From IMG/VR virus record IMGVR_UViG_3300021142_000006: a DNA stretch of 64,000 nt; one strand, 5' to 3'. The stretch's first letter is position 1; every line of letters begins with the position of its first letter. This document shows positions 3,836 to 47,366 of this stretch, piece after piece. The notes under the pieces are model-generated. The model was not told where the DNA came from. It searched no databases and saw nothing but the letters and a program-made list of their open reading frames with translations. The stretch comes from a virus (lineage: Duplodnaviria; Heunggongvirae; Uroviricota; Caudoviricetes). Position numbers and translations under genes: made by a program.

Positions 3836-4606
3836 ATGAAAAATATATCATATACAGGGATTATTTTGGATAATAAATCCAGACAACTATTGGCTGAAAA
3901 GTATAAGCAAATGATGCCTGATGGTTGGGAATGGATTGCTCACCATATGACAATAACTATGGGTTCTTTACCCAAGGAAAAACTTGATTTGCTTGGTACA
4001 GAACAATCTATTACCGCTGAATCTTTAGGTATGACCGATATGGTTATGGAAATTGGTGTTTCTGGGTTTGAATCCAAAAATACTCAACCACATGTAACAT
4101 TAGCTGTTAATAGAAAAGATGGTGGTAAACCATTCATGTCAAATAACATAACTGATTGGCAACCAATTGAAGAAAAATTTATACTAACAGGCCAAATTAA
4201 AGAAGTGGGACAACCTGATCAACCTATGAAAAAAAATTTAAAAGAAATTGTGGATATCAACGATTTACCCTTTAAATCGGATGTAACAAAAGCTGGTGGT
4301 AAAATCTATCAAGTTGGCGGTGCTGTACGAGATACCTTCTTGAATAAAACATCTAAAGACCTTGATATTTTAATTACTGGTGTACCTTCAGATAAACTAC
4401 AATCAATATTGAGTAAATACGGTAAAGTGGATCTTGTTGGTGCATCATTTGGTATTATCAAATTTACACCCCCAGGTGGTGAAGAAATTGATATTGCTTT
4501 ACCACGTACTGAAAAGGCTAAAAAACAGATCGTGGTAACTTTAGGTCAAAACGATATATTTATAGAATATAACGATTCAATGAATGAAAGAGAACTTAAA
4601 GGTTAA
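3836..4606 (+). CDS. cca: 2H phosphoesterase domain fused to the N-terminal part of a class II CCA-adding enzyme
   Basis: Two HxT motifs (HMT, HVT), then IYQVGGAVRD...KDLDILI...EIDIALPRTEK (motif A and third carboxylate); ORF stops about 29 aa after RTEK. Confidence 0.88.
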   Translation: MKNISYTGIILDNKSRQLLAEKYKQMMPDGWEWIAHHMTITMGSLPKEKLDLLGTEQSITAESLGMTDMVMEIGVSGFESKNTQPHVTLAVNRKDGGKPFMSNNITDWQPIEEKFILTGQIKEVGQPDQPMKKNLKEIVDINDLPFKSDVTKAGGKIYQVGGAVRDTFLNKTSKDLDILITGVPSDKLQSILSKYGKVDLVGASFGIIKFTPPGGEEIDIALPRTEKAKKQIVVTLGQNDIFIEYNDSMNERELKG

Positions 4607-5579
4607 ATGTCACATTTGTGATTTTGAAACTACAGCTAAAGGTGTTGGTAGGCATTACCATAACATACACGAATTAAAATTATCCGAAAATGCGGATATA
4701 TATCTGATGTATTTTGATTATAACAATCCTGGAATATTGGATGATATAAAAGATATGATTCGAAACGGTATTGGTTTGAAATCCATACAAAAAAAATATC
4801 ATAATATTGGTACTGGGTCGCTACCAATGCTAAAAAAATCATTAAGTAATATATACCCAGATGATTTTAATAAGAAAGTAACTGACAGGGGTAAGCAAAC
4901 CTTACTCAATAATACAGGGTCACGTTACTCTGAAAAATTTATTGAAAGAATGGGTGGTTTTAAAAATCAAACATTAGCAAAAAAAGCGGCTAAAGTCGCT
5001 TCAACTAATGTTTCAAGGTTAGAAAAATTATCTGAAATGTTAAAGTATAATAACCCCTCACATAATCCACAAATTATTGAAAAAAGAAAACAAATATACG
5101 ATGAAAAAACACAAGAAGAAAAAAGGGCAATCATTAAAAAACGATTAGCTACTTGTGAAAAGAATCAATCTTATTTAAAACGAGCTGAAACAATAATAAA
5201 AAAATATGGTGGGTTTGTTGCGTATGGTAATAAAACGGCAGGTCATTCAAATTGGCATGATAAGTTAAAACAAATGTTAATCGAAAACAATATAATAACA
5301 GAATCGGAACAAACTGTCGTTAACAATTACACAAGTGATGAGGTTGATTTAGAGAAAAAAATTATTATTGAGCTAAATGGTGATTTTTGGCATTGTAATC
5401 CAAAATTTTATAATGGTGACTATTATCACCCTTTTATTAAAATGACAGCTAAACAAATTTGGGATAAGGATGAAAAACGAATATCTGATTATATTCAAAA
5501 TGGTTGGCGAGTGATTGTTATTTGGGAATCAGATGATTTAAACGAAAAGATTAACGAATTGAAAAAAATATATGGATAA
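4584..5579 (+). mobile_element. free-standing homing endonuclease gene (Vsr/DUF559-like, C2H2 finger at N-terminus) inserted in cca
   Basis: CHIC..HYHNIH finger; C-terminal DEVDLEKKIIIELNGDFWH...GWRVIVIWESD; overlaps both cca halves. Confidence 0.85.
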
Positions 5580-6600
5580 GAAAAAAATATTACAACTATT
5601 AGAATTAAATGGTTTCAATGTCATTAACGGAGTTGTTTACAATAAACCAGAAAATATAATTAGTTTTTTAAATAAAACAATTAAGCCGACTAAGATAAAA
5701 AATTTAGCTGGTCATAAAGGATTTGATGTGACTTCCGACCATACTCTACCAATTGAAAAGGATCTTGAAAGGCGTGATTTTACTATCAACTCAATAGCTA
5801 AGGATGCTGAAGGTAATCTAATTGATCCATACAAGGGTATTGAAGATATTAAAACAAAAACTATACGTTTAACAAATCCTGAAGCTTTTGCTGATGACCC
5901 TTTGAGAATGCTAAGATCGGTTCAATTTGCTTCGAGGTTTGGATTCACAATTGAGCCTCATACTTTTGATATGATTCAAAAAAACGCCGATTCAATCAAA
6001 ACAATAGCGTTTGAAAGGGTTATAGAAGAGTTTCAAAAGATTGTAGATAAAGGTTCACCCTATGTTGGTGTCACTTTGTTGGTTAAGTCTGGTTTATATG
6101 AAGGTATTTTTGATAGCAGGTTTCTTGGCTCATTCAAACCATTTAATCATGTCAACAAACTAAGTGAATTTATTTATTGGTTATTACAACCAATTACAAA
6201 AGACCCAGCAGCTTATTTCATGAAAGTTATGAAAGGTGATTTGAAGACTCATGCTGAAATGAAAGCCTTACAATTGGTTATGGATAAACCTGTGAGAACT
6301 GACCTTGAGGATAAATGGATGGTTTTTGGTGTAAATAAGATTGCGCCGACAATGTTTGATAGTTATTTCATATTGAACGAATTGGATAACGTATTACCAT
6401 TTTTCGAAGATGGTAGATATCCGATATCATATAAACAATTAGCTATTAATGGTAATGATCTGGAAAGTCTGGGCTTTAAAAACGAAAAAGTTGGTCTTGG
6501 ATTGAAGTTGGCTATGGATGCTGTTTACTCTGATACCGTTGCAAACGATAAATCACAACTTTTGCAATATGTGTCTGGTAAAATGAAAACAAAAGGTTAA
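5572..6600 (+). CDS. cca: C-terminal part of class II CCA-adding enzyme
   Basis: GHKGFDV...KDLERRDFTINSIA (motif B), DDPLRMLRSVQFASRF (motif D), ERVIEEFQK, C-terminal LAINGNDL; no HD domain. Confidence 0.9.
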   Translation: MDKKKILQLLELNGFNVINGVVYNKPENIISFLNKTIKPTKIKNLAGHKGFDVTSDHTLPIEKDLERRDFTINSIAKDAEGNLIDPYKGIEDIKTKTIRLTNPEAFADDPLRMLRSVQFASRFGFTIEPHTFDMIQKNADSIKTIAFERVIEEFQKIVDKGSPYVGVTLLVKSGLYEGIFDSRFLGSFKPFNHVNKLSEFIYWLLQPITKDPAAYFMKVMKGDLKTHAEMKALQLVMDKPVRTDLEDKWMVFGVNKIAPTMFDSYFILNELDNVLPFFEDGRYPISYKQLAINGNDLESLGFKNEKVGLGLKLAMDAVYSDTVANDKSQLLQYVSGKMKTKG

Positions 6601-7601
6601 TAACTAAATTTATAACCTTTTGTTTTTTTTCTTTCACCACGAATAACCCTATAAATCATTTCTGATGTTATTTCTAATTCGGTTGTTGCGTCATGTATAT
6701 TTTTAAACTCTTTAATTAAAACACCATTTAAACCATACATTTTAACTGGTTTCAGAACTGGTGTTCTATCATACGCACCACGATTATGTTCCTTTAACGT
6801 TTGAAATATTTCATATTTCCTACTCAATCTCAAACCATCCGAATTATTATACATATTATTTTTTATAAAATCCAAATCTTCAAAAGAATAATATAATAAT
6901 TTACATATACAACCTTTTTCGGATTTATATTTGGTATATATAATTTTAGTATCAGTTAACCCAAATGAATTAAACTTTTCTTTTAATTTTAATATAAAAT
7001 TTTCAGAACCAATAATTGAAAACCTTAAAATACCTTCTTTGTTCATTTTTGATATTGAACCATCGCCATCAAAAACACCTCTAACAAAATCCCAAAAATA
7101 ATCATCATTAATATTAGGATATTCACAATCAAAAGATTTATTATTTTGTAATCCTAAACAATTTAAATCAACACACATTTTCTTAGATGGTATCTGTAAA
7201 CTAAATCTTTTATATGTTTTATTAGTTCTTTTATCATAGACATCATATTCACTTAACTTATGAGTGGAATTTAATTCTTTTCTAACGATATCAACTAATT
7301 CATAATCTTTAGATGTTAATACTACCTTAGACCATTTTTTACTAATATACCCATCTGATAATAACAAGCCTAAAACATATGCTTTAGACGATGAATTTAT
7401 ATTTTCAAAAAAAGTAATATTCATACTATTTTTACAGTTTTTAGAATTAAAATTTTGTTTTTTAGTTTTTATATTATTTTTAATTAAAAATTTTCTGACA
7501 CCAGAAGCGGTATAGCCCAAAATATCACCAACTTCTTTTAATGTTTTATTTTCCTCAAAATAAATTTTTTTAACCTCTTGTATTTCTAATTTCTTTTTCA
7601 T
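6597..7601 (-). mobile_element. free-standing LAGLIDADG homing endonuclease with C-terminal NUMOD1-like domain
   Basis: YVLGLLLSDGYI and FVRGVFDGDGSI motifs; KPVKMYGLNG..KEF...GYKFSY tail. Confidence 0.88.
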
Positions 7602-16126: not shown

Positions 16127-16160
16127 AAACAAAAAACCCTGAGATTTTATTCTCAGGGTT
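16127..16160 (-). terminator. attenuator terminator of tRNA array 1
   Basis: AACCCUGAGA/UCUCAGGGUU 10-bp stem plus U-tract about 10 nt before tRNA-Tyr. Confidence 0.88.
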
Positions 16161-16181
16161 CTTATTATCTTTTTCTTTTTT

Positions 16182-16322
16182 TTATCCTCTATCGTCAGTA
16201 TCTTTTGTTGACTTTATAGGAAAATAAAAGTAATAAGAACCCCTTCCGCTCTCATACGCTGATGACGGTTCATAACTCGGTGCCCATGATGCGGCTACTA
16301 CTGTTAATCTTGAGTTTCTCAT
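16182..16322 (-). CDS. leader peptide 1 (46 aa, MRNSRLTVVAASWAPSYEPSSAYESGRGSYYFYFPIKSTKDTDDRG)
   Basis: hand-translated; A-rich initiation region; contains the antiterminator strand 16231..16242. Confidence 0.82.
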   Translation of the reverse strand: MRNSRLTVVAASWAPSYEPSSAYESGRGSYYFYFPIKSTKDTDDRG

Positions 16323-16428
16323 TTTCTTTTAATTTTTTATAGTTTTTTTAAAAATAACCAGGATAATGTTTTTTTCTTACCAATAGAAGTTTTTAACTGC
16401 TGGAATTATCCTCTTGTTATATATAGTA

Positions 16429-16459
16429 CAAAAGTAGTAAAAATTTTTGAAAAAACAAA
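16429..16459 (-). promoter_or_regulatory. Bacteroidetes-type sigma-A promoter for leader/array 1
   Basis: TTTG-N19-TACTTTTG on the minus strand. Confidence 0.78.
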
Positions 16460-25812: not shown

Positions 25813-25828
25813 TGAAATATAAATTATG

Positions 25829-25900
25829 TGGCTCGTACCAGGATCGAACTGGTGACTCTGGAGTTTAGAATTCCGAATGTTGCCGCTACACCAACGAGCC
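25829..25900 (-). tRNA. amber suppressor tRNA (anticodon CUA); amino-acid identity unknown
   Basis: GGCUCGU/ACGAGCC, GUGU/ACAU D stem, CGGAA-UUCUAAA-CUCCA, 5-nt variable loop, ACCAG-UUCGAUC-CUGGU; canonical spacing puts CUA at 34-36; only 3 of 5 anticodon-stem pairs. Confidence 0.78.
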
Positions 25901-36602: not shown

Positions 36603-36640
36603 AAAATAAAAAACCCCAGATCGCTTTGCGTACTGGGGCT
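36603..36640 (-). terminator. attenuator terminator of tRNA array 2
   Basis: GCCCCAG/CUGGGGU stem plus U-tract about 10 nt before tRNA-Arg. Confidence 0.85.
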
Positions 36641-36668
36641 TAAGTTTTCCTTTCTTAATTCTTCTATG

Positions 36669-36758
36669 TTATGAAAAAGTTTTAACAATAGATGCCCCAT
36701 CTCTTAAAATTAAGAGTTGTAACTGTTGTAGGCGAATAATGTTATTAACGTTTTTCAT
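36669..36758 (-). CDS. leader peptide 2 (29 aa, MKNVNNIIRLQQLQLLILRDGASIVKTFS)
   Basis: hand-translated; contains UGGGGC, complementary to the terminator 5' arm. Confidence 0.82.
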   Translation of the reverse strand: MKNVNNIIRLQQLQLLILRDGASIVKTFS

Positions 36759-36971
36759 TTTAAAATATTTTATGCTTTTATATAAATATGTTCTTTTTTT
36801 AAAAAAAATCGGAATAATGTTTTTTTCTTATTTAGCAAGGTTTAAATGCTGAAATTATTCCCTTTATAAAATACGGATTGCTTTTTTTTGACGTTTTAAA
36901 TTGGAAGTTTAAATTGGAAGTTTAAATTGATAAAAATTTGCTGTAGGCAATCCCATTATTTCAATATAGTA

Positions 36972-37003
36972 CAAAAGTAATAAACAATTTTTAAAAAAAC
37001 AAG
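36972..37003 (-). promoter_or_regulatory. Bacteroidetes-type promoter for leader/array 2
   Basis: CTTG-N20-TACTTTTG. Confidence 0.7.
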
Positions 37004-42424: not shown

Positions 42425-42495
42425 TGCGCCATGAAGGTACTGACCCTTCTTCCACGAGTTAAAAGCTCGTTACTTCACCTTAAAGCTTATAGCGC
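42425..42495 (-). tRNA. tRNA-Lys(UUU), atypical T-loop
   Basis: ACGAG-CUUUUAA-CUCGU; T-loop GUCAGUA. Confidence 0.83.
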
Positions 42496-43279: not shown

Positions 43280-43302
43280 ATATATTTGAGATAAACAAAT
43301 TG

Positions 43303-43374
43303 TACCGATGTGGGATCTCGAAACCCAAACCTATCCCATATGAGGGGATCGCTCTTCCTTTGAGCTACATCGGC
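43303..43374 (-). tRNA. tRNA-CAU (elongator Met or Ile2)
   Basis: GCCGAUG/CAUCGGU; AUCCC-CUCAUAU-GGGAU. Confidence 0.82.
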
Positions 43375-43377
43375 ATT

Positions 43378-43640
43378 TGCTGGTATAGCCGCCCATCACC
43401 AGCGTTGTGCTTGCTTTTATAAAGCACTTTATCCGATTCTCCCCTAAGCCCTCAGACGATGCGACATTTCAACGATTAATTACTTCGTTTACTATAAGAG
43501 TTACAGATTTCTCTGTCGTTTTTAATAAGGTTAGGAATAGAGGCTGTTTGGTGCGCATTAGGGGTGTCTCTTCAAACTGTATAACTCAGTCAACCAAACC
43601 TTAGACACTTCATCTATCAACGCTTTTATGCATATTCCTA
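43378..43640 (-). ncRNA. candidate multiply pseudoknotted ncRNA (~260 nt)
   Basis: at least seven complementary segment pairs, several crossing; GC higher than the genome background. Confidence 0.62.
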
Positions 43641-43932: not shown

Positions 43933-44988
43933 TTATTTAAAATATTCTAACCAAATATCTTTGGTCTTATTAGTATAAATAGTTAGTTCTTTTTGATTCT
44001 TTGTAACATTCAAATTTGGTGATTGATGTGTTAGTAATAAAGCCGCATATATTTCTTCAGTTTGTGTTGCTTTTGCTACAAACCAACTATCAATCCATGG
44101 TATTTCTTTAGATCCAACAAGAGGTACGCCTTGACTTATAATATCAGCACCAACTATGTTAAACGTTTCAGTTATTGAAACTTGCATACCAATATCCATT
44201 TGTGCACAAATATTTGAAAAATCTTCTCTATCTTGCCACCCATGGTTTATTAATTGATGTCCTTTATCAGATAATTGTGAAAAAAATCCAATAAGATTTC
44301 TCATAACAGGTTCACCTTTTTGTTCAACCCTACCACCGTTAACATGGAACCTCAATTTTTTATTGATTGAGTCTGCAAACTTAACAGCAGCGATTGCTTG
44401 CATTATATGATTTTTTAAAGGTCTAACTGCACCAAAACAACCTATATCAATTATATCTTTATCATTTGCTGTATAAGTTTTTGTCTTATAATCTTGTGGA
44501 TAAAAATTTGGTAAATATATAATTCTATTATCCTTTTCAAAATCATCCCAATTCATTTTATACCCAAGATAAAATTTTATCTCATTTAAAGTTCTTGGTG
44601 AATTAACAGCAATTAAAACATTAGGATATGAAATATAATCACCTAACCAATCCATAGCCATTCCCTCGTTTGCAAGAAATGGAATTTCACTATGTAATCT
44701 AATTATCCATTTAACACTTGGATGTAAGTTACAAAGAACTGAGAACTTTGTTGGTACAACCCATAACGCTTCAATAATAACGTGTGTTGGTTTGAACTCA
44801 GTAACTTCTTTATCAATACCATTATTATCAATCACAACAACAATTTTTGTTTCAACCCCACAATCCAAAAGCATTTGATACATGAAGGATGCTGAATTAT
44901 ATAGACCTGTTGTTAATCCAATTTTAGAATCTTTAACTGGATTAAAATCCTCTTTTCTTTTTAAAATAAAAAGCACTCTACATGACAT
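43933..44988 (-). CDS. GT-B (GT4-like) glycosyltransferase
   Basis: GCFGAVRPLKNH...QVSITETFNIVGAD..GVPLV; true start is probably MSCRVL because the longer ORF overlaps tRNA-Gly. Confidence 0.75.
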   Translation of the reverse strand: MSCRVLFILKRKEDFNPVKDSKIGLTTGLYNSASFMYQMLLDCGVETKIVVVIDNNGIDKEVTEFKPTHVIIEALWVVPTKFSVLCNLHPSVKWIIRLHSEIPFLANEGMAMDWLGDYISYPNVLIAVNSPRTLNEIKFYLGYKMNWDDFEKDNRIIYLPNFYPQDYKTKTYTANDKDIIDIGCFGAVRPLKNHIMQAIAAVKFADSINKKLRFHVNGGRVEQKGEPVMRNLIGFFSQLSDKGHQLINHGWQDREDFSNICAQMDIGMQVSITETFNIVGADIISQGVPLVGSKEIPWIDSWFVAKATQTEEIYAALLLTHQSPNLNVTKNQKELTIYTNKTKDIWLEYFK

Positions 44989-45002
44989 ATTATTTATTGT
45001 TT

Positions 45003-45077
45003 TGGAGCAGTAAGGCAGAATCGAACTGCCGTCCTCGCCTTGGCAAGGCGATGTAATAGCCACTATACGACTACTGC
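45003..45077 (-). tRNA. tRNA-Gly(GCC)
   Basis: GCAGUAG/UUACUGC, U73, CCA encoded. Confidence 0.92.
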
Positions 45078-45080
45078 AAT

Positions 45081-45333
45081 TGAGGCGATGCTTCGGTACG
45101 CCTCGGTTCCCTATTCACCCATTTACAGTGACCCCAGTTACCTCTGCTTTTTTATTCTTTTGCTACTAATCAGTTACCAGCTGACCAAGAATTTCAGAAT
45201 CTGTAGATTCAACTCCTTACGAAGAACGCCATGGGTAGCGTTTTTTTTAGTTAAAAACATCTTAACCCAATGTTGTGAGGCTTTCGCCAGGGGAATCCCA
45301 CCATCCATTCGTTTTTTAAAAGGGAATGGAACC
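45081..45333 (-). ncRNA. candidate multi-hairpin ncRNA (~250 nt)
   Basis: GGUUCC/GGAACC closing stem, GGC-GAAA-GCC, GAAUCU/AGAUUC, UCAG/CUGA, terminal GAGGCG/CGCCUC. Confidence 0.55.
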
Positions 45334-45338
45334 TTTTG

Positions 45339-45461
45339 TCATCCTGGATGGATTCGAACCACCGACACACAGTTCTACATATAAAATTTTCACTGCGGAA
45401 CACATTCTCATCAGAATGCTCTTTTTTTTTACCGTTGCTCTACCAACTGAGCTACAGGATG
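45339..45461 (-). ncRNA. tRNA scaffold (Phe-like body) with 57 nt in place of the anticodon loop
   Basis: CAUCCUG/CAGGAUG, GCUC/GAGC, ACGGU/ACUGU, GGUGG-UUCGAAU-CCAUC all intact. Confidence 0.75.
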
Positions 45462-45672
45462 AAATTCCCCCATCTTGAGATTATGGATGAGTAGTTATTT
45501 CGGTTTTCTATTTCTACAAAACCTGCGAGGCATCCCTCATTAAAAGTGCCAACACTACTGGGAAGATTTGTGTGTCATCTTTAACCCCAAGCCGTCCCAC
45601 TCACGCTGACTGACGGTCTGCGAAATCATTTTTAATCTTGATTCAAAGACTCTGAGTATCTCTAACTCATTG

Positions 45673-45793
45673 CGGCGAGATCAGGATTCGAACCTGAACC
45701 TTTTTCTTAATAGGAAATTGTTAGATAGTTAATTTGCAGCATTCATCCACACTGGATGATTCTTTTTTAATGCTGCCGTTACACCATCTCGCC
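45673..45793 (-). ncRNA. tRNA scaffold with the anticodon arm replaced by an insert
   Basis: GGCGAGA/UCUCGCC, D arm and UCAGG-UUCGAAU-CCUGA intact; insert carries the A-tract/hairpin/CUGCAAA module. Confidence 0.72.
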
Positions 45794-45852
45794 TTGTTAT
45801 ACAATAGTAATAAACATTGTTAATAAAAGCAAATTATTATTGTAATTTTTTT

Positions 45853-45927
45853 TGGAGGACACACTCAGAACCGACCTGAGAACTCATGCTTACAAGGCAA
45901 GTATTTTTCCAGCTAAACTATGCGTCC
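45853..45927 (-). tRNA. tRNA-Thr(UGU), atypical T-loop
   Basis: loop CUUGUAA; T-loop GUCGGUU; CCA encoded. Confidence 0.83.
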
Positions 45928-46061
45928 ATTACAACTTTTAAATTATCCCCAGAGTTGTGAACTGTGCTGGCATACGATCCAGAAGTTTAGTGGCTTGTTC
46001 TCGGATGATTAATCCGATATTAGACTTTCTTATCTTCGATCCCTTGGCCTTTGGGCTTTTG

Positions 46062-46134
46062 TAGCGAACCCAGGTAATGCTCCTGGTATCTCCAGGTTAT
46101 GAGCCTGGCGAGATAACTTTTTCTCTAATTCGCA
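46062..46134 (-). tRNA. tRNA-Met(CAU), initiator-like, atypical T-loop
   Basis: U1.U72 mismatch; CCAGG-CUCAUAA-CCUGG; T-loop GAGCAUU. Confidence 0.75.
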
Positions 46135-46246
46135 ATGTTTAAAAAGGTTAGTAGTTGTCTTAGAGTTACGGAGTCTGTAATTAACATATGACCGTTTCGA
46201 CCACGTTCTCGGATCAGGAGTTTTGTGCGTAACATACTACTATTTG

Positions 46247-46319
46247 TAGCGAGAGAAGGACTCGAACCTTCGACCTCACAGGTTATGAGCCTGGCGAGCT
46301 ACCGCTGCTCTATCTCGCA
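46247..46319 (-). tRNA. tRNA-Met(CAU), initiator-like
   Basis: U1.U72 mismatch; loop CUCAUAA; UAGAGCAGCGGUAGCUC D arm. Confidence 0.85.
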
Positions 46320-46411
46320 ATATAATATCTTAATAAAGTTAAATATGCACGTTAAAGATGTAAAGTATATTATGCAAAAATAGGTTTATTGAGGTGTTTT
46401 GCATATTATAA

Positions 46412-46531
46412 TTATCTTTTTCGTCTTTGTCTTAGAGCCGAACCAGCAAGTGTTTTTGTTGTTTTACTCGTTGATTTACTCTTTAACGCTTTGCTTGCTT
46501 TTTTTGCAACACGTTTGGATGTTCTTGCCAT
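46412..46531 (-). CDS. 39-aa highly basic peptide (not in the ORF track)
   Basis: MARTSKRVAKKASKALKSKSTSKTTKTLAGSALRQRRKR, hand-translated. Confidence 0.62.
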   Translation of the reverse strand: MARTSKRVAKKASKALKSKSTSKTTKTLAGSALRQRRKR

Positions 46532-46545
46532 AATATATTTTTTTG

Positions 46546-46666
46546 AGCTGACGGATAGAATCGAACCACCGACTCTGGCTTGGAATGCATATAACTGTTA
46601 ATTGCGGTATGGAATCTCATCAGATTCACTTGTTTTAACAGCGTGTTACCATTACACTACATCAGC
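46546..46666 (-). ncRNA. tRNA-Gly(UCC)-like scaffold with a ~50-nt anticodon insert
   Basis: GCUGAUG/CGUCAGC, U73; residual UUCCAA-GCCAG 3' anticodon half; insert hairpin GAAUCU-GAUG-AGAUUC. Confidence 0.75.
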
Positions 46667-46758
46667 ATTGAAATTCATAGGTTGTCAACCCACCGTGTTT
46701 TTTGTCCATCATACTATTGACGAGATAGTACTTCTCATATTTACAGGGTTATGAATTT

Positions 46759-46835
46759 TGGCGGAGATGAAGGGATTCGAACCCTCGACCTTCAGCGTGA
46801 CAAGCTGACATTGTAACCAACTCTACTACACCTCC
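46759..46835 (-). tRNA. tRNA-Asp(GUC)
   Basis: GGAGGUG/CAUCUCC, G73, CCA encoded. Confidence 0.92.
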
Positions 46836-46905
46836 GTATTAAAATTAAAGGGTTAAAAGGTTCTGCTTTCAACAAGGTGCGCTTAACTTACTTCCTTTAA
46901 TTTTG

Positions 46906-46978
46906 CTCTTCCAGCAGGATTCGAACCTGCGACCAACAGATTAACAGTCTGCTGCGCTACCAGCTGCGCTATGGAAGA
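46906..46978 (-). tRNA. tRNA-Asn(GUU)
   Basis: UCUUCCA/UGGAAGA, loop CUGUUAA. Confidence 0.93.
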
Positions 46979-46987
46979 ATTTTTAAG

Positions 46988-47061
46988 TGTACCCTACAGG
47001 GTTCGAACCTGTGACCCCAACATTATGAGTGTTATGCTCTAACCAGCTGAGCTAAGGGTAC
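46988..47061 (-). tRNA. tRNA-CAU, probably Ile2 (lysidine type)
   Basis: GUACCCU/AGGGUAC; Ile-like body UAGCUCAGCUGGUUAGAGC; loop CUCAUAA. Confidence 0.8.
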
Positions 47062-47286: not shown

Positions 47287-47366
47287 AAATTCGGAATGGG
47301 GTTTTAGCTTGAATCATTAAAAGTGAATTGCTTAAAAATTTGCTGGAACCATTCCCATTTGTTTTA

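What the first reader, a model, noticed from the sequence alone, without database searches (positions are those of the whole stretch)
45339..46666. Three tRNA scaffolds whose anticodon loop is replaced by a conserved ~55-nt module
45339..45461, 45673..45793 and 46546..46666 (121-123 nt) keep perfect acceptor, D and T arms. They carry an A-tract (AAAAAAGA or AAAACAAG), a 6-7-bp hairpin (loops GAUG, GUG, GAUG) and then CCGCAG, CUGCAAA or CCGCAA. Two have UUAA...UUAA closing the module and two share a downstream UAUAUG. The inserts are too short for group I introns and show no clear bulge-helix-bulge. They could be novel introns, decoys for anticodon nucleases or uncharged-tRNA sensors, or tRNA-processed carriers for a functional aptamer.
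Basis: partly seen in the sequence, partly recalled or inferred. Interest (0 to 1): 0.8.

Follow-up and report, generated by a model that had tools for sequence, protein, structure and literature searches.

The report
tRNA-shaped RNAs carrying Ro60-type handle
Three tRNA-shaped genes of a large freshwater phage each carry the same 50-base hairpin-plus-CNGCAA module beside an anticodon-like loop; in other phages this module travels with a gene for a Ro60-like RNA-binding protein, so the RNAs are more likely Y-RNA-like protein handles on a tRNA body than ordinary introns.

Summary
E1 (45339-45461), E2 (45673-45793) and E3 (46546-46666), all on the minus strand, have intact acceptor, D and T arms and a related insert. 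I measure each insert at exactly 50 nt.

The anticodon loop is not simply replaced. A 7-nt loop with U33 and a purine at 37 follows each module: GUA, AUU and UCC.

The module is an A-rich lead, a covarying 6-7-bp hairpin, 3 nt and then CNGCA. It recurs in dozens of tRNA-like genes of other phages. A covariance model finds it only at E1-E3 in this window and nowhere in 1 Mb of control phage DNA.

All four complete or near-complete phage records with the module encode a DUF2828 protein, and in five records the gene lies within 1.5 kb of the module. A model of that protein matches Ro60 best. Lake metatranscriptome contigs cover E1 and E2 unspliced. A syntenic orthologue of E1 keeps the module but has lost tRNA features.

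Best reading (about 0.5): Y-RNA-like, tRNA-bodied partners of a Ro60-like protein. A true protein-dependent intron remains possible (about 0.25). No DUF2828 gene was found in the 106 kb of this phage that I could read. Earlier notes of this scan describe the same CAGCAA module on other DNA.

The parts
45339..45461 (-). E1: 123-nt tRNA-shaped RNA gene (C1-G72, A73, short variable loop) with the module in its anticodon loop
   Evidence: Rfam tRNA 45.9 bits with a 57-nt gap. ARAGORN -i: Tyr(GUA), 50-nt intron at 31/32.
45380..45430 (-). E1 module. It is 50 nt, and one A at the border is ambiguous. A-run, then hairpin 45419-45413 / 45408-45402 with loop GAUG, then CCGCAG at 45398-45393.
   Evidence: Sequence, gapless alignment A1, model R1 41.6 bits.
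45374..45380 (-). E1 anticodon-like heptamer AUGUAGA (U33, GUA, G37)
   Evidence: Read. The L194 orthologue has AUGGGA here, so it is not conserved.
45673..45793 (-). E2: 121-nt tRNA-shaped RNA gene with the module between the D arm and a complete anticodon-like arm
   Evidence: Sequence. Rfam tRNA only 18 bits. Close orthologues L194 and L138a.
45721..45770 (-). E2 module (50 nt; borders ambiguous by up to 2 nt). Hairpin 45759-45753 / 45749-45743 with loop GUG; CUGCAA at 45739-45734.
   Evidence: Model R1 39.9 bits.
45702..45718 (-). E2 anticodon-like arm AUUUC-CUAUUAA-GAAAA (AUU). The L194 orthologue has CUGUUAA (Asn GUU).
46546..46666 (-). E3: 121-nt tRNA-shaped RNA gene (U73, C2-G71) with the module inside the anticodon stem at 29/30
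   Evidence: Rfam tRNA 41.1 bits with a 61-nt gap. Orthologue L138b shows a compensatory change in the split stem.
46589..46638 (-). E3 module (50 nt). Hairpin 46627-46622 / 46617-46612 with loop GAUG; CCGCAA at 46607-46602; UUAACAG pairs with the CUG|UUAA junction.
   Evidence: Model R1 42.8 bits.
46578..46588 (-). E3 mini-hairpin GC-AUUCCAA-GC (UCC). The same GCAU-NNN-RAGC frame occurs in L138b (CGG) and in L264 (UGG).
45162..45810 (-). Stretch covered by contigs of four lake metatranscriptome runs. It runs through the E1 insert, the 210-nt spacer and all of E2 without a skipped part.
   Evidence: table 8: 45362-45800, 45387-45783, 45469-45784 and 45675-45810 at depth 4-7.5 (3.4 for a further contig, 45501-45656); 45162-45354 at depth about 30.
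16360..16412 (-). Free-standing form of the same motif: an 8-bp closing stem (AGGAUAAU / AUUAUCCU), then U, then CCAGCAG, a short cargo and an A-run
36875..36953 (-). Free-standing form: 7-bp stem GGAUUGC / GCAAUCC with CU-ACAGCAA
47293..47355 (-). Free-standing form: 7-bp stem GGAAUGG / CCAUUCC with UU-CCAGCAA

Best explanation
E1, E2 and E3 are small non-coding RNAs built on a tRNA body. They carry, on the 5' side of an anticodon-like loop, a conserved handle: an A-rich lead, a hairpin, 3 nt and CNGCA(A/G). The handle is most likely the docking site of a phage Ro60-like ring protein of the DUF2828 plus vWA family. That would make these RNAs a circularly permuted, tRNA-ended analogue of bacterial YrlA Y RNAs.

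**Proposed working, all inferred.** The RNA is cut out of the tRNA-array transcript like a tRNA. It stays unspliced. It binds the Ro60-like protein through the handle. It then uses its tRNA body and displayed anticodon-like loop to bring that protein together with tRNA-recognising factors. These could be host anticodon nucleases (bait) or the phage's own RNA-repair enzymes, which are encoded nearby.

**Shown here.**
- The motif, its covariation and its spread across phages.
- Its co-occurrence with DUF2828 genes in other phages.
- The Ro60-like fold of a DUF2828 protein model.
- Unspliced RNA-library contigs.

**Not shown.** Binding, the absence of splicing, the presence of the protein in this phage, and the biological role.
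For: 1. **Real RNA structure.** On 26 tRNA-like genes from this window and IMG/VR phages, 6 of the 7 hairpin pairs change on both sides (for example UA 13 / CG 12) and 87% of cells are paired. C.GCA is invariant.
2. **Specific.** Model R1 matches only E1-E3 in the window and nothing in 1.04 Mb of control loci.
3. **Not tied to interrupting tRNAs.** The same stem plus NN-CNGCA(A/G) motif occurs free-standing in this window and beside DUF2828 genes elsewhere.
4. **Co-occurrence.** DUF2828 (PF11443) is present in 9 of 12 module-bearing records, including all 4 that are at least 91% complete. It is present in 1 of 4 module-less relatives. R1 matches lie under 1.5 kb from the gene in G006, G010, G014, G015 and G016, and 17-92 kb away in four others.
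5. **Fold.** A DUF2828 model (pLDDT 72.9) has Ro60 structures as its 13 best PDB matches, E 9e-8 to 8e-6 over the full length, including phage phiLo Ro60.
6. **Motif resemblance.** Known Ro60 partners use a short motif next to a stem: GNCGAA in YrlA (PMC4201824) and CGAA in phiLo Yrl RNAs (PMC12135203). CNGCAA resembles this. YrlA also joins a Ro60 site to a tRNA-like domain.
7. **RNA data.** Contigs of four metatranscriptome runs cover E1 and E2 with their inserts, and none skips 50 nt. Cover is uneven in the same way in all four runs, which argues for RNA rather than DNA carry-over.
8. **Orthologue.** In the syntenic locus L194 the E1 orthologue keeps the module (47/53) better than the tRNA parts (74-76%). 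Its D loop has no GG, its T loop reads UGCAAGU, its heptamer differs, and Rfam does not call it tRNA at E<=1.
9. **Variable triplets.** Near-identical scaffolds differ in the anticodon triplet (AGG, CCA, GAG), and some loops have a pyrimidine at 37.
10. **Redundancy.** The phage also has uninterrupted Tyr(GUA), Gly(UCC) and Asn(GUU) tRNAs.
Against: - No DUF2828 or TROVE gene was found in the window, nor in the roughly 106 kb of this phage that I could read, from -38 kb to +68 kb. Its presence here is inferred from relatives only.
- 79 metagenome loci around DUF2828 genes had no embedded module within 4 kb, so the pairing is not obligate in position.
- Precise removal of 50 nt restores a canonical cloverleaf in all three.
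- U33 and purine 37 are mostly kept across the family.
- The split anticodon stem of E3 covaries with L138b (U28-A42 to A28-U42).
- Several family members keep matching identity elements (Asp loops with G73, Gly loop with U73). All of these fit real tRNAs that are spliced.
- Contigs of standard RNA libraries cannot show mature 75-nt tRNAs and drop rare variants.
- No binding experiment exists for DUF2828 proteins.
Confidence: 0.5

Rival explanations
1. They are real tRNA genes (Tyr-GUA, Asn-like AUU, Gly-UCC) interrupted by a new class of protein-dependent intron. The hairpin-CNGCA module is the recognition signal. An unknown endonuclease cuts at both borders, and the phage's RNA ligase, kinase and phosphoesterase set rejoins the halves. 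The Ro60-like protein could be part of this machinery.
For: - Deleting exactly 50 nt gives canonical 71-73-nt cloverleaves with U33 and R37.
- Insert positions differ (26/27, 29/30, 31/32), as for archaeal non-canonical introns.
- The split stem of E3 covaries with L138b, and a third 29/30 case exists in L264.
- The last 2-3 exon nt plus the first intron nt pair with the 3' part of the insert, and this pairing covaries: E3 CUGUUAA/UUAACAG, L138b AGUAAAAA/UUUUUACU, E1 GUAAAA/UUUUAU.
- The phage encodes an RNA-ligase-like protein, an AAA_33 kinase, HAD_SAK phosphatases, RlaP and a CCA-adding enzyme.
- Lak megaphage tRNAs have unexplained introns, including in Tyr-GUA and Gly-UCC (PMC6784885).
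Against: - No spliced joint appears in four RNA runs, while the unspliced form is assembled.
- The module also occurs where there is nothing to splice.
- The E1 orthologue has lost D- and T-loop features but keeps the module.
- Triplets vary between near-identical scaffolds, and some members have a pyrimidine at 37.
- There is no bulge-helix-bulge; the 5' junction lies inside a continuous helix.
- I found no orthologue lacking the insert.
- In most family members the whole anticodon arm is contiguous, so no splicing is needed to form it.
Confidence: 0.25
2. They are decoys or sensors that work without a dedicated protein partner. The tRNA body presents an anticodon-like loop to host anticodon nucleases or modification enzymes. 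The module only stabilises the RNA or blocks its entry into the ribosome.
For: - The anticodon-like loops copy real tRNA loops (CUGUCAC Asp, CUGUUAA Asn, CUGCCAA Gly).
- The same phage has normal copies of the mimicked tRNAs.
- RNA-repair genes nearby suggest pressure from tRNA-cutting defences.
Against: - The invariant C.GCA and the partly conserved stem sequence (AUCY/RGAU) point to sequence-specific recognition rather than plain stabilisation.
- The co-occurrence with DUF2828 would be unexplained.
Confidence: 0.12
3. They are tRNA pseudogenes disrupted by a small 50-bp mobile DNA element that targets anticodon arms.
For: - The insert length is identical in three genes.
- Insertion points differ.
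- Homing endonuclease genes sit in and near phage tRNA arrays.
Against: - There are no target-site duplications or clear terminal inverted repeats.
- The hairpin covaries at the RNA level.
- Orthologous genes with the module are kept across divergent phages.
- The RNAs appear in RNA-library contigs.
- No copy lies outside RNA genes.
Confidence: 0.05

Closest known systems
YrlA-type bacterial and phage Y RNAs with Ro60/Rsr (Chen et al. 2014, PMC4201824; Rfam RF02553)
   Same: A small RNA that joins a tRNA-like domain (T arm, D arm, acceptor-like stem) to a short conserved motif next to a helix, which serves as a Ro60 docking site. It is encoded near the protein gene and near RNA-repair genes.
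   Different: - Here the 5' and 3' ends are in the acceptor stem, as in a tRNA, and the handle is a closed hairpin in the anticodon arm. That is a circular permutation of YrlA.
- The motif is CNGCAA, not GNCGAA.
- An anticodon-like heptamer is kept.
- The partner, where seen, is DUF2828, not a Pfam TROVE protein.
- There is no RF02553 match.
Thermus phage phiLo Ro60 with Yrl1/Yrl2 (PMC12135203; PDB 9KOP, 9L5Y)
   Same: A phage-encoded Ro60-fold protein with small stem-bulge RNAs encoded beside its gene. A 4-nt motif (CGAA) contributes to binding. It is among the best structural matches of the DUF2828 model.
   Different: - The phiLo RNAs are not described as tRNA-bodied.
- The protein is a recognisable TROVE protein.
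- Binding has been shown there and not here.
'Enigmatic' tRNA introns of Lak megaphages (Devoto et al. 2019, PMC6784885)
   Same: Inserts in the anticodon region of phage tRNA genes, including Tyr-GUA and Gly-UCC. They have no Rfam match and begin with a short hairpin followed by an A-rich stretch.
   Different: - Lak inserts are 79-114 nt, lie at about 37/38 and contain an internal T-arm-like minihelix.
- They lack the CNGCA box.
- They show presence/absence between strains. None of this holds here.
Archaeal/eukaryotic protein-spliced tRNA introns (bulge-helix-bulge, EndA/TSEN, then RtcB or Trl1)
   Same: A short insert whose removal restores the tRNA. Non-canonical positions are known in Archaea. 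Ligase, kinase and phosphoesterase functions are available in the phage.
   Different: - No bulge-helix-bulge can be drawn.
- The 5' border lies in a continuous helix.
- No EndA-family hit appeared among the window ORFs scanned against Pfam.
- No spliced RNA was seen.
Theta (minimal HDV-like) ribozymes next to phage tRNAs (Kienbeck et al. 2024, PMC10879173)
   Same: A small structured RNA element attached to phage tRNA genes of Bacteroidota phages. An HDV-like match starts 1 nt after the E2 orthologue in L194.
   Different: - Theta ribozymes sit 3' of the tRNA and have a double-pseudoknot fold.
- The module here is internal and is a single hairpin.
- It gives no HDV-family match.

Membership tests
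Canonical tRNA (Rfam RF00005) | Acceptor, D and T arms with conserved loop residues | tested here: met
   E1 scores 45.9 and E3 41.1 bits, above the 29-bit cut-off. E2 scores only 18 bits, though its arms can be read.
Canonical tRNA (Rfam RF00005) | Contiguous 5-bp anticodon stem with a 7-nt loop, total length about 72-90 nt | tested here: not met
   The genes are 121-123 nt. The stem or loop is interrupted by 50 nt in E1 and E3. E2 has a contiguous arm, but with 50 extra nt at 26/27.
Y RNA / YrlA (RF02553) | Match to the family model | tested here: not met
   No RF02553 match at the gathering score over the window, nor at E<=10 over 45300-46700.
Y RNA / YrlA (RF02553) | Ro60 (TROVE) gene in the same genome, usually adjacent | tested here: inconclusive
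   Pfam TROVE is absent from 16 related or module-bearing records. The Ro60-fold protein DUF2828 is present in 9 of 12 module-bearing records. It was not found in the 106 kb of this phage that I read.
Y RNA / YrlA (RF02553) | GNCGAA / CGAA motif beside the closing stem | tested here: not met
   The motif here is C-N-G-C-A-(A/G), invariant C.GCA.
Y RNA / YrlA (RF02553) | tRNA-like domain joined to the protein-binding stem | tested here: met
   Full tRNA body with the handle in the anticodon arm, but with permuted connectivity.
Y RNA / YrlA (RF02553) | Physical binding to Ro60 | not testable with these tools
   Needs EMSA or RIP.
Protein-spliced tRNA intron (BHB type) | Bulge-helix-bulge at the two borders | tested here: not met
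   By inspection, the 5' border lies within a 6-8-bp continuous helix and the 3' border is 0-6 nt past it.
Protein-spliced tRNA intron (BHB type) | Spliced product exists | tested here: inconclusive
   No joint skipping about 50 nt in four RNA runs. These are contigs of standard libraries, which cannot hold mature tRNAs.
Group I intron in tRNA | Ribozyme core of 200 nt or more (P3-P9), Rfam Intron_gpI match | tested here: not met
   The insert is 50 nt with a single hairpin, and there is no Rfam match.
Lak megaphage tRNA introns | 79-114-nt insert at about 37/38 with an internal T-arm-like minihelix | tested here: not met
   Compared with Table S6 of PMC6784885: different length, position and content.
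HDV-like / theta ribozyme | Nested double pseudoknot with catalytic C; match to Rfam HDV families | tested here: not met
   No match in 45300-46700 at E<=10.

The most novel reading that the evidence does not exclude
The hairpin-CNGCAA box is a general processing and assembly signal of large phages. It is read by a Ro60-like (DUF2828) ring protein together with the phage RNA ligase set. When embedded in tRNA bodies, it defines either a new protein-dependent tRNA intron class or a family of anticodon baits whose triplet is swapped between phages to match the host tRNAs under attack by anticodon nucleases.
Probability: 0.2. Interest if true: 0.85.

Novelty: new variant of a known kind. Interest (0 to 1): 0.66.

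Why it matters
Ro60 and Y RNAs are conserved from bacteria to humans, yet what the tRNA-like part of bacterial Y RNAs is for remains open. If the reading holds, these RNAs would be Y-RNA-like partners built the other way round: a complete, end-processed tRNA body with a protein handle and a displayed anticodon-like loop.

They occur in many uncultured large phages, alongside an uncharacterised protein family (DUF2828) that also exists in eukaryotes. That would give DUF2828 a first functional lead, namely RNA binding of the Ro60 type.

It would also offer a testable link between Ro60-type particles, tRNA damage and phage counter-defence. In practice, these genes should not be counted as decoding tRNAs or as intron-containing tRNAs in phage annotation until that is tested.

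Tried and rejected
- **Hammerhead ribozyme** (CUGAUGAG in E1 and E3). There is no stem II and no GAAA in register, E2 lacks the box, and Rfam gives no hit.
- **Box C/D K-turn, pistol, hatchet, twister.** No Rfam match at E<=10.
- **Giant-virus origin.** Collagen, LRR and sugar genes suggested it, but phage-family matches and Bacteroidota-phage relatives argue for a phage.
- **Pattern TCTGATGAGA-N7-CCGCA in IMG/VR.** 59 hits, all in coding DNA and none in a tRNA context, so chance.
- **Exon-anchored search for an E3 orthologue with or without the insert in IMG/VR.** Nothing found.
- **Relatives found through two neighbouring proteins** (L060-L070, L106-L137). The L060-L070 loci checked hold no tRNA. 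Twelve of L106-L137 hold 129 tRNAs, none over 91 nt. The complete relative G001 has 63 tRNA matches and no module in its arrays.
- **My regular-expression counts of embedded and free motifs** were no more frequent near DUF2828 than in controls. They are too unspecific and I discarded them.
- **Eight-bp pairing of the E2 D-stem strand with AAUGCUGC.** Not kept in L138a or L194, so probably chance.
- **Sequence search of DUF2828 against PDB.** No Ro60 match. The single-sequence fold was too poor to use (pLDDT 42).
- **Linking a DUF2828 contig from the same lake series (L279/L355) to this phage.** No overlap with known parts, so unresolved.
- **Walk past the window's right end.** It stops at a 2622-residue collagen-like gene where the returned contig ends.
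- **E3 and the ordinary tRNAs had no RNA-contig cover**. This proves nothing either way.
Full report
**1. What is there**

The window is AT-rich DNA of a large uncultured freshwater phage. ARAGORN finds 28 tRNA genes and Rfam 29, all on the minus strand. Within the largest array lie three long tRNA-like genes:
- E1 at 45339-45461
- E2 at 45673-45793
- E3 at 46546-46666

Rfam's tRNA model aligns E1 (45.9 bits) and E3 (41.1 bits) end to end, with 57- and 61-nt gaps in the anticodon arm. E2 reaches only 18 bits. Reading the strands confirms 7-bp acceptor stems, D arms and T arms.

**2. Anatomy of the inserts**

I delimited each insert independently, and each is exactly 50 nt. ARAGORN with intron search calls E1 a tRNA-Tyr(GUA) with a 50-nt intron at 31/32. 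A deletion scan gives normal-length products only for 50-nt deletions in all three.

The three 50-mers align without a gap, and 18 columns are invariant. The parts, in order, are:
- an A-rich lead (UUAAAA or an A-run)
- a 6-7-bp hairpin with loop GAUG or GUG
- 3 nt
- C-N-G-C-A-(A/G)
- an A/U-rich tail

A 7-nt anticodon-like loop with U33 and a purine at 37 follows each module:

| Gene | Heptamer | Triplet | Insert position |
|---|---|---|---|
| E1 | AUGUAGA | GUA | 31/32 or 32/33 |
| E2 | CUAUUAA | AUU | about 24-26/27 |
| E3 | AUUCCAA | UCC | 29/30, inside the stem |

The insert is 50 nt, not about 55. The anticodon loop is displaced rather than replaced. The insertion points differ.

**3. 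Specificity**

A covariance model of the module (R1, built from 20 sequences) scores E1-E3 at 40-43 bits. The next match in the window scores 20 bits. There is no match at E<=0.1 in 1.04 Mb of other phage loci.

**4. The module is a widespread family**

A pattern made of the 18 invariant positions found L138, a 4.6-kb phage contig with homologues of E2 and E3. A pattern joining the shared D arm to the start of the module then returned dozens of phage tRNA-like genes of 110-130 nt with the same layout.

On an alignment of 26 of them:
- C.GCA is invariant.
- Six of the seven hairpin pairs show changes on both sides, for example UA 13 / CG 12 and CG 19 / UA 7.
- The whole structure, tRNA arms included, beats all slid and shuffled controls.

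The N of CNGCAA can be any base. The hairpin loop varies freely.

In most members the whole anticodon-like arm lies 3' of the module, so the insert is at 26/27. A subclass at 29/30 comprises E3, L138b and one gene in L264. It shares the frame GCAU-NNN-RAGC with triplets UCC, CGG and UGG.

**5. For an intron**

- Removing the module restores a cloverleaf.
- Loops keep U33 and mostly R37.
- Several members have matching identity elements: Asp-type loop CUGUCAC with G73, and Gly loop with U73.
- The split stem of E3 (CUG...CAG) becomes CAG...CUG in L138b.
- The last exon bases plus the first insert bases pair with the 3' part of the insert, and that pairing covaries.
- The phage encodes a CCA-adding enzyme, RlaP, HAD_SAK phosphatases, an AAA_33 kinase, a DEDD exonuclease and a PHA02142-type RNA-ligase-like protein. 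All lie within 10 kb of the window's left end or inside the window.
- Lak megaphages have unexplained tRNA introns in Tyr-GUA and Gly-UCC. Those are 79-114 nt, sit at about 37/38 and contain a T-arm-like minihelix (PMC6784885).

**6. Against an intron**

*RNA data.* The DNA of this stretch is present in 14 freshwater metagenome runs, and parts of it in six lake metatranscriptome runs. Contigs of four RNA runs were laid on 44900-47000.
- They cover 45362-45800, 45387-45783, 45469-45784 and 45675-45810. The last is flanked by adapter sequence on both sides.
- This cover passes through the E1 insert, the 210-nt spacer and the whole of E2 with its insert.
- 45162-45354 is covered at about five times higher depth.
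- No contig skips about 50 nt.
- The same uneven cover in all four runs argues that this is RNA, not carried-over DNA. That is my inference.
- Such libraries cannot hold mature tRNAs, so a spliced form is not excluded.

*An orthologue.* L194 is syntenic with the window: Thr(UGU), an extra module-bearing gene, the E2 orthologue, a related spacer, then the E1 orthologue. In the E1 orthologue:
- The module is 47/53 identical, while the tRNA parts are 74-76% identical.
- The D loop has no GG.
- The T loop reads UGCAAGU.
- The heptamer is replaced by AUGGGA.
- Rfam no longer calls it a tRNA at E<=1.

*Other points.*
- Near-identical scaffolds carry different triplets (AGG, CCA, GAG), and some loops have a pyrimidine at 37.
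- The phage already has uninterrupted Tyr(GUA), Gly(UCC) and Asn(GUU) tRNAs, and E1-E3 are not recent copies of them (at most 70% identity).
- No bulge-helix-bulge can be drawn.
- No orthologue without the insert was found.

**7. The module outside tRNA bodies**

The same motif also occurs where nothing is interrupted. Its layout is a helix strand followed by 1-3 nt and CNGCA(A/G), with an A-rich run before the partner strand.
- In the window, three free-standing forms have perfect 7-8-bp closing stems: 16412-16360, 36953-36875 and 47355-47293.
- In other phages, similar stem-UCAGCAA units lie between tRNA genes.

The embedded form is thus a circular permutation of the free form.

**8. The protein partner in other phages**

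Earlier notes of this scan, which I treated as leads only, linked a CAGCAA box to Ro60-like proteins. I tested this.
- Pfam TROVE is absent from 16 records.
- DUF2828 (PF11443, with DUF7788 behind it) is present in 9 of 12 module-bearing records, including all four that are at least 91% complete. It is present in 1 of 4 module-less relatives.
- Searching whole records with R1 gives the positions. The modules lie within 1.5 kb of the DUF2828 gene in five records (G006, G010, G014, G015, G016). They lie 17-92 kb away in four (G007, G008, G009, G012). Three relatives without DUF2828 have no module.
- A model of a DUF2828 protein built on eight sequences (pLDDT 72.9) has Ro60 structures as its 13 best PDB matches. 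These span the full length at E 9e-8 to 8e-6 and include Xenopus, human, Deinococcus and phage phiLo Ro60.
- Sequence searches alone do not see this relationship.
- No paper in the library connects DUF2828 with RNA.

Published Ro60 partners use a short motif beside a stem: GNCGAA in YrlA and CGAA in phiLo Yrl RNAs. YrlA also carries a tRNA-like domain (PMC4201824, PMC12135203).

**9. Limits**

I could not show that this phage has a DUF2828 gene.
- It is not in the window.
- It is not in the flanks I could walk, about -38 kb to +68 kb.
- No whole genome is held.
- In the syntenic relative G008 the gene lies 29 kb from the modules. If gene order holds, that would place it just past the window's right end. 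The returned contig ends there, in a collagen-like gene.
- 79 metagenome loci around DUF2828 genes had no embedded module within 4 kb, so adjacency is a feature of some lineages only.

**10. Verdict**

The best-supported reading is that E1-E3 are tRNA-bodied, Y-RNA-like RNAs whose 50-nt module is a handle for a Ro60-fold protein. The anticodon-like loop is displayed next to it. The role in tRNA surveillance, repair or decoying is inferred.

A new protein-dependent intron is the main rival and could even use the same protein.

In print, the nearest things are YrlA with Ro60, phiLo Ro60 with its Yrl RNAs, and the Lak tRNA introns. I found no description of this module or of its link to DUF2828 in the papers searched. 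Within this scan the same module has been noted many times on other DNA.

Noticed in passing
window 3836-6600 (+): The CCA-adding enzyme gene is in two pieces: PolyA_pol head positions 1-74 in ORF 3836-4606, and positions 82-126 plus the RNA-binding domain in ORF 5572-6600. A 331-residue ORF with a weak endonuclease match (4584-5579) separates them. This looks like an intein or an inserted homing element. A LAGLIDADG gene follows at 6597-7601 (-).
   Followed up: partly
window 45081-45354 (-): A GC-richer, strongly folding RNA just 3' of E1 has no Rfam match. It is the most deeply covered piece in three of the four metatranscriptome runs (depth about 30, against 4-7.5 for E1-E2).
   Followed up: partly
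window 16360-16412, 36875-36953, 47293-47355 (-): Free-standing stem plus CNGCA(A/G) units. The first two sit in stretches (16127-16459, 36603-37003) that another first-stage note reads as leader-peptide attenuators of the tRNA arrays. The third lies between tRNA-His and tRNA-Phe. That reading of the first two should be revisited.
   Followed up: partly
window 43375-43400 (-): GGGCGGC-UAUA-CCAGCAA-AU lies directly 5' of tRNA-Met (43302-43374). No perfect closing strand turned up within 260 nt. It may be a leader form of the same box.
   Followed up: no
window 25828-25900 (-): A tRNA with anticodon CUA (amber suppressor; ARAGORN labels it Pyl). The window's ORFs of 150 aa or more are almost the same under the standard code and with TAG read as Gln.
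   Followed up: no
window 42425-42495 (-): Rfam calls a tRNA here (42.6 bits) that ARAGORN does not list.
   Followed up: no
L194:1390-1457 (-): An HDV-like ribozyme match (RF02682, 35.3 bits, E 3e-4, below the family cut-off) starts 1 nt after the 3' end of the E2 orthologue. This is the placement described for theta ribozymes. The window has no such match after E2.
   Followed up: partly
L138:2580-2866 (+): A T arm plus 3' acceptor strand lies upstream of the matching 5' acceptor strand plus D arm, with CUGCAA and CAGCAA boxes on either side. This may be a tRNA gene with its halves in swapped order.
   Followed up: no
L101-L103 (record G001): The 362-kb relative has 63 tRNA matches. Several are 85-89 nt although their anticodons belong to normally short tRNAs (Thr, Met, Cys, Asn, Ile). 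One 109-nt tRNA-like match lies at G001:73055-73163, 6 kb from its DUF2828 gene.
   Followed up: no
L274:14743-15465: The ORF-free 722-bp gap about 32 kb left of the window, noted earlier as a tRNA-Leu mimic, sits between Band_7 and PspA genes. No DUF2828 gene is nearby.
   Followed up: no
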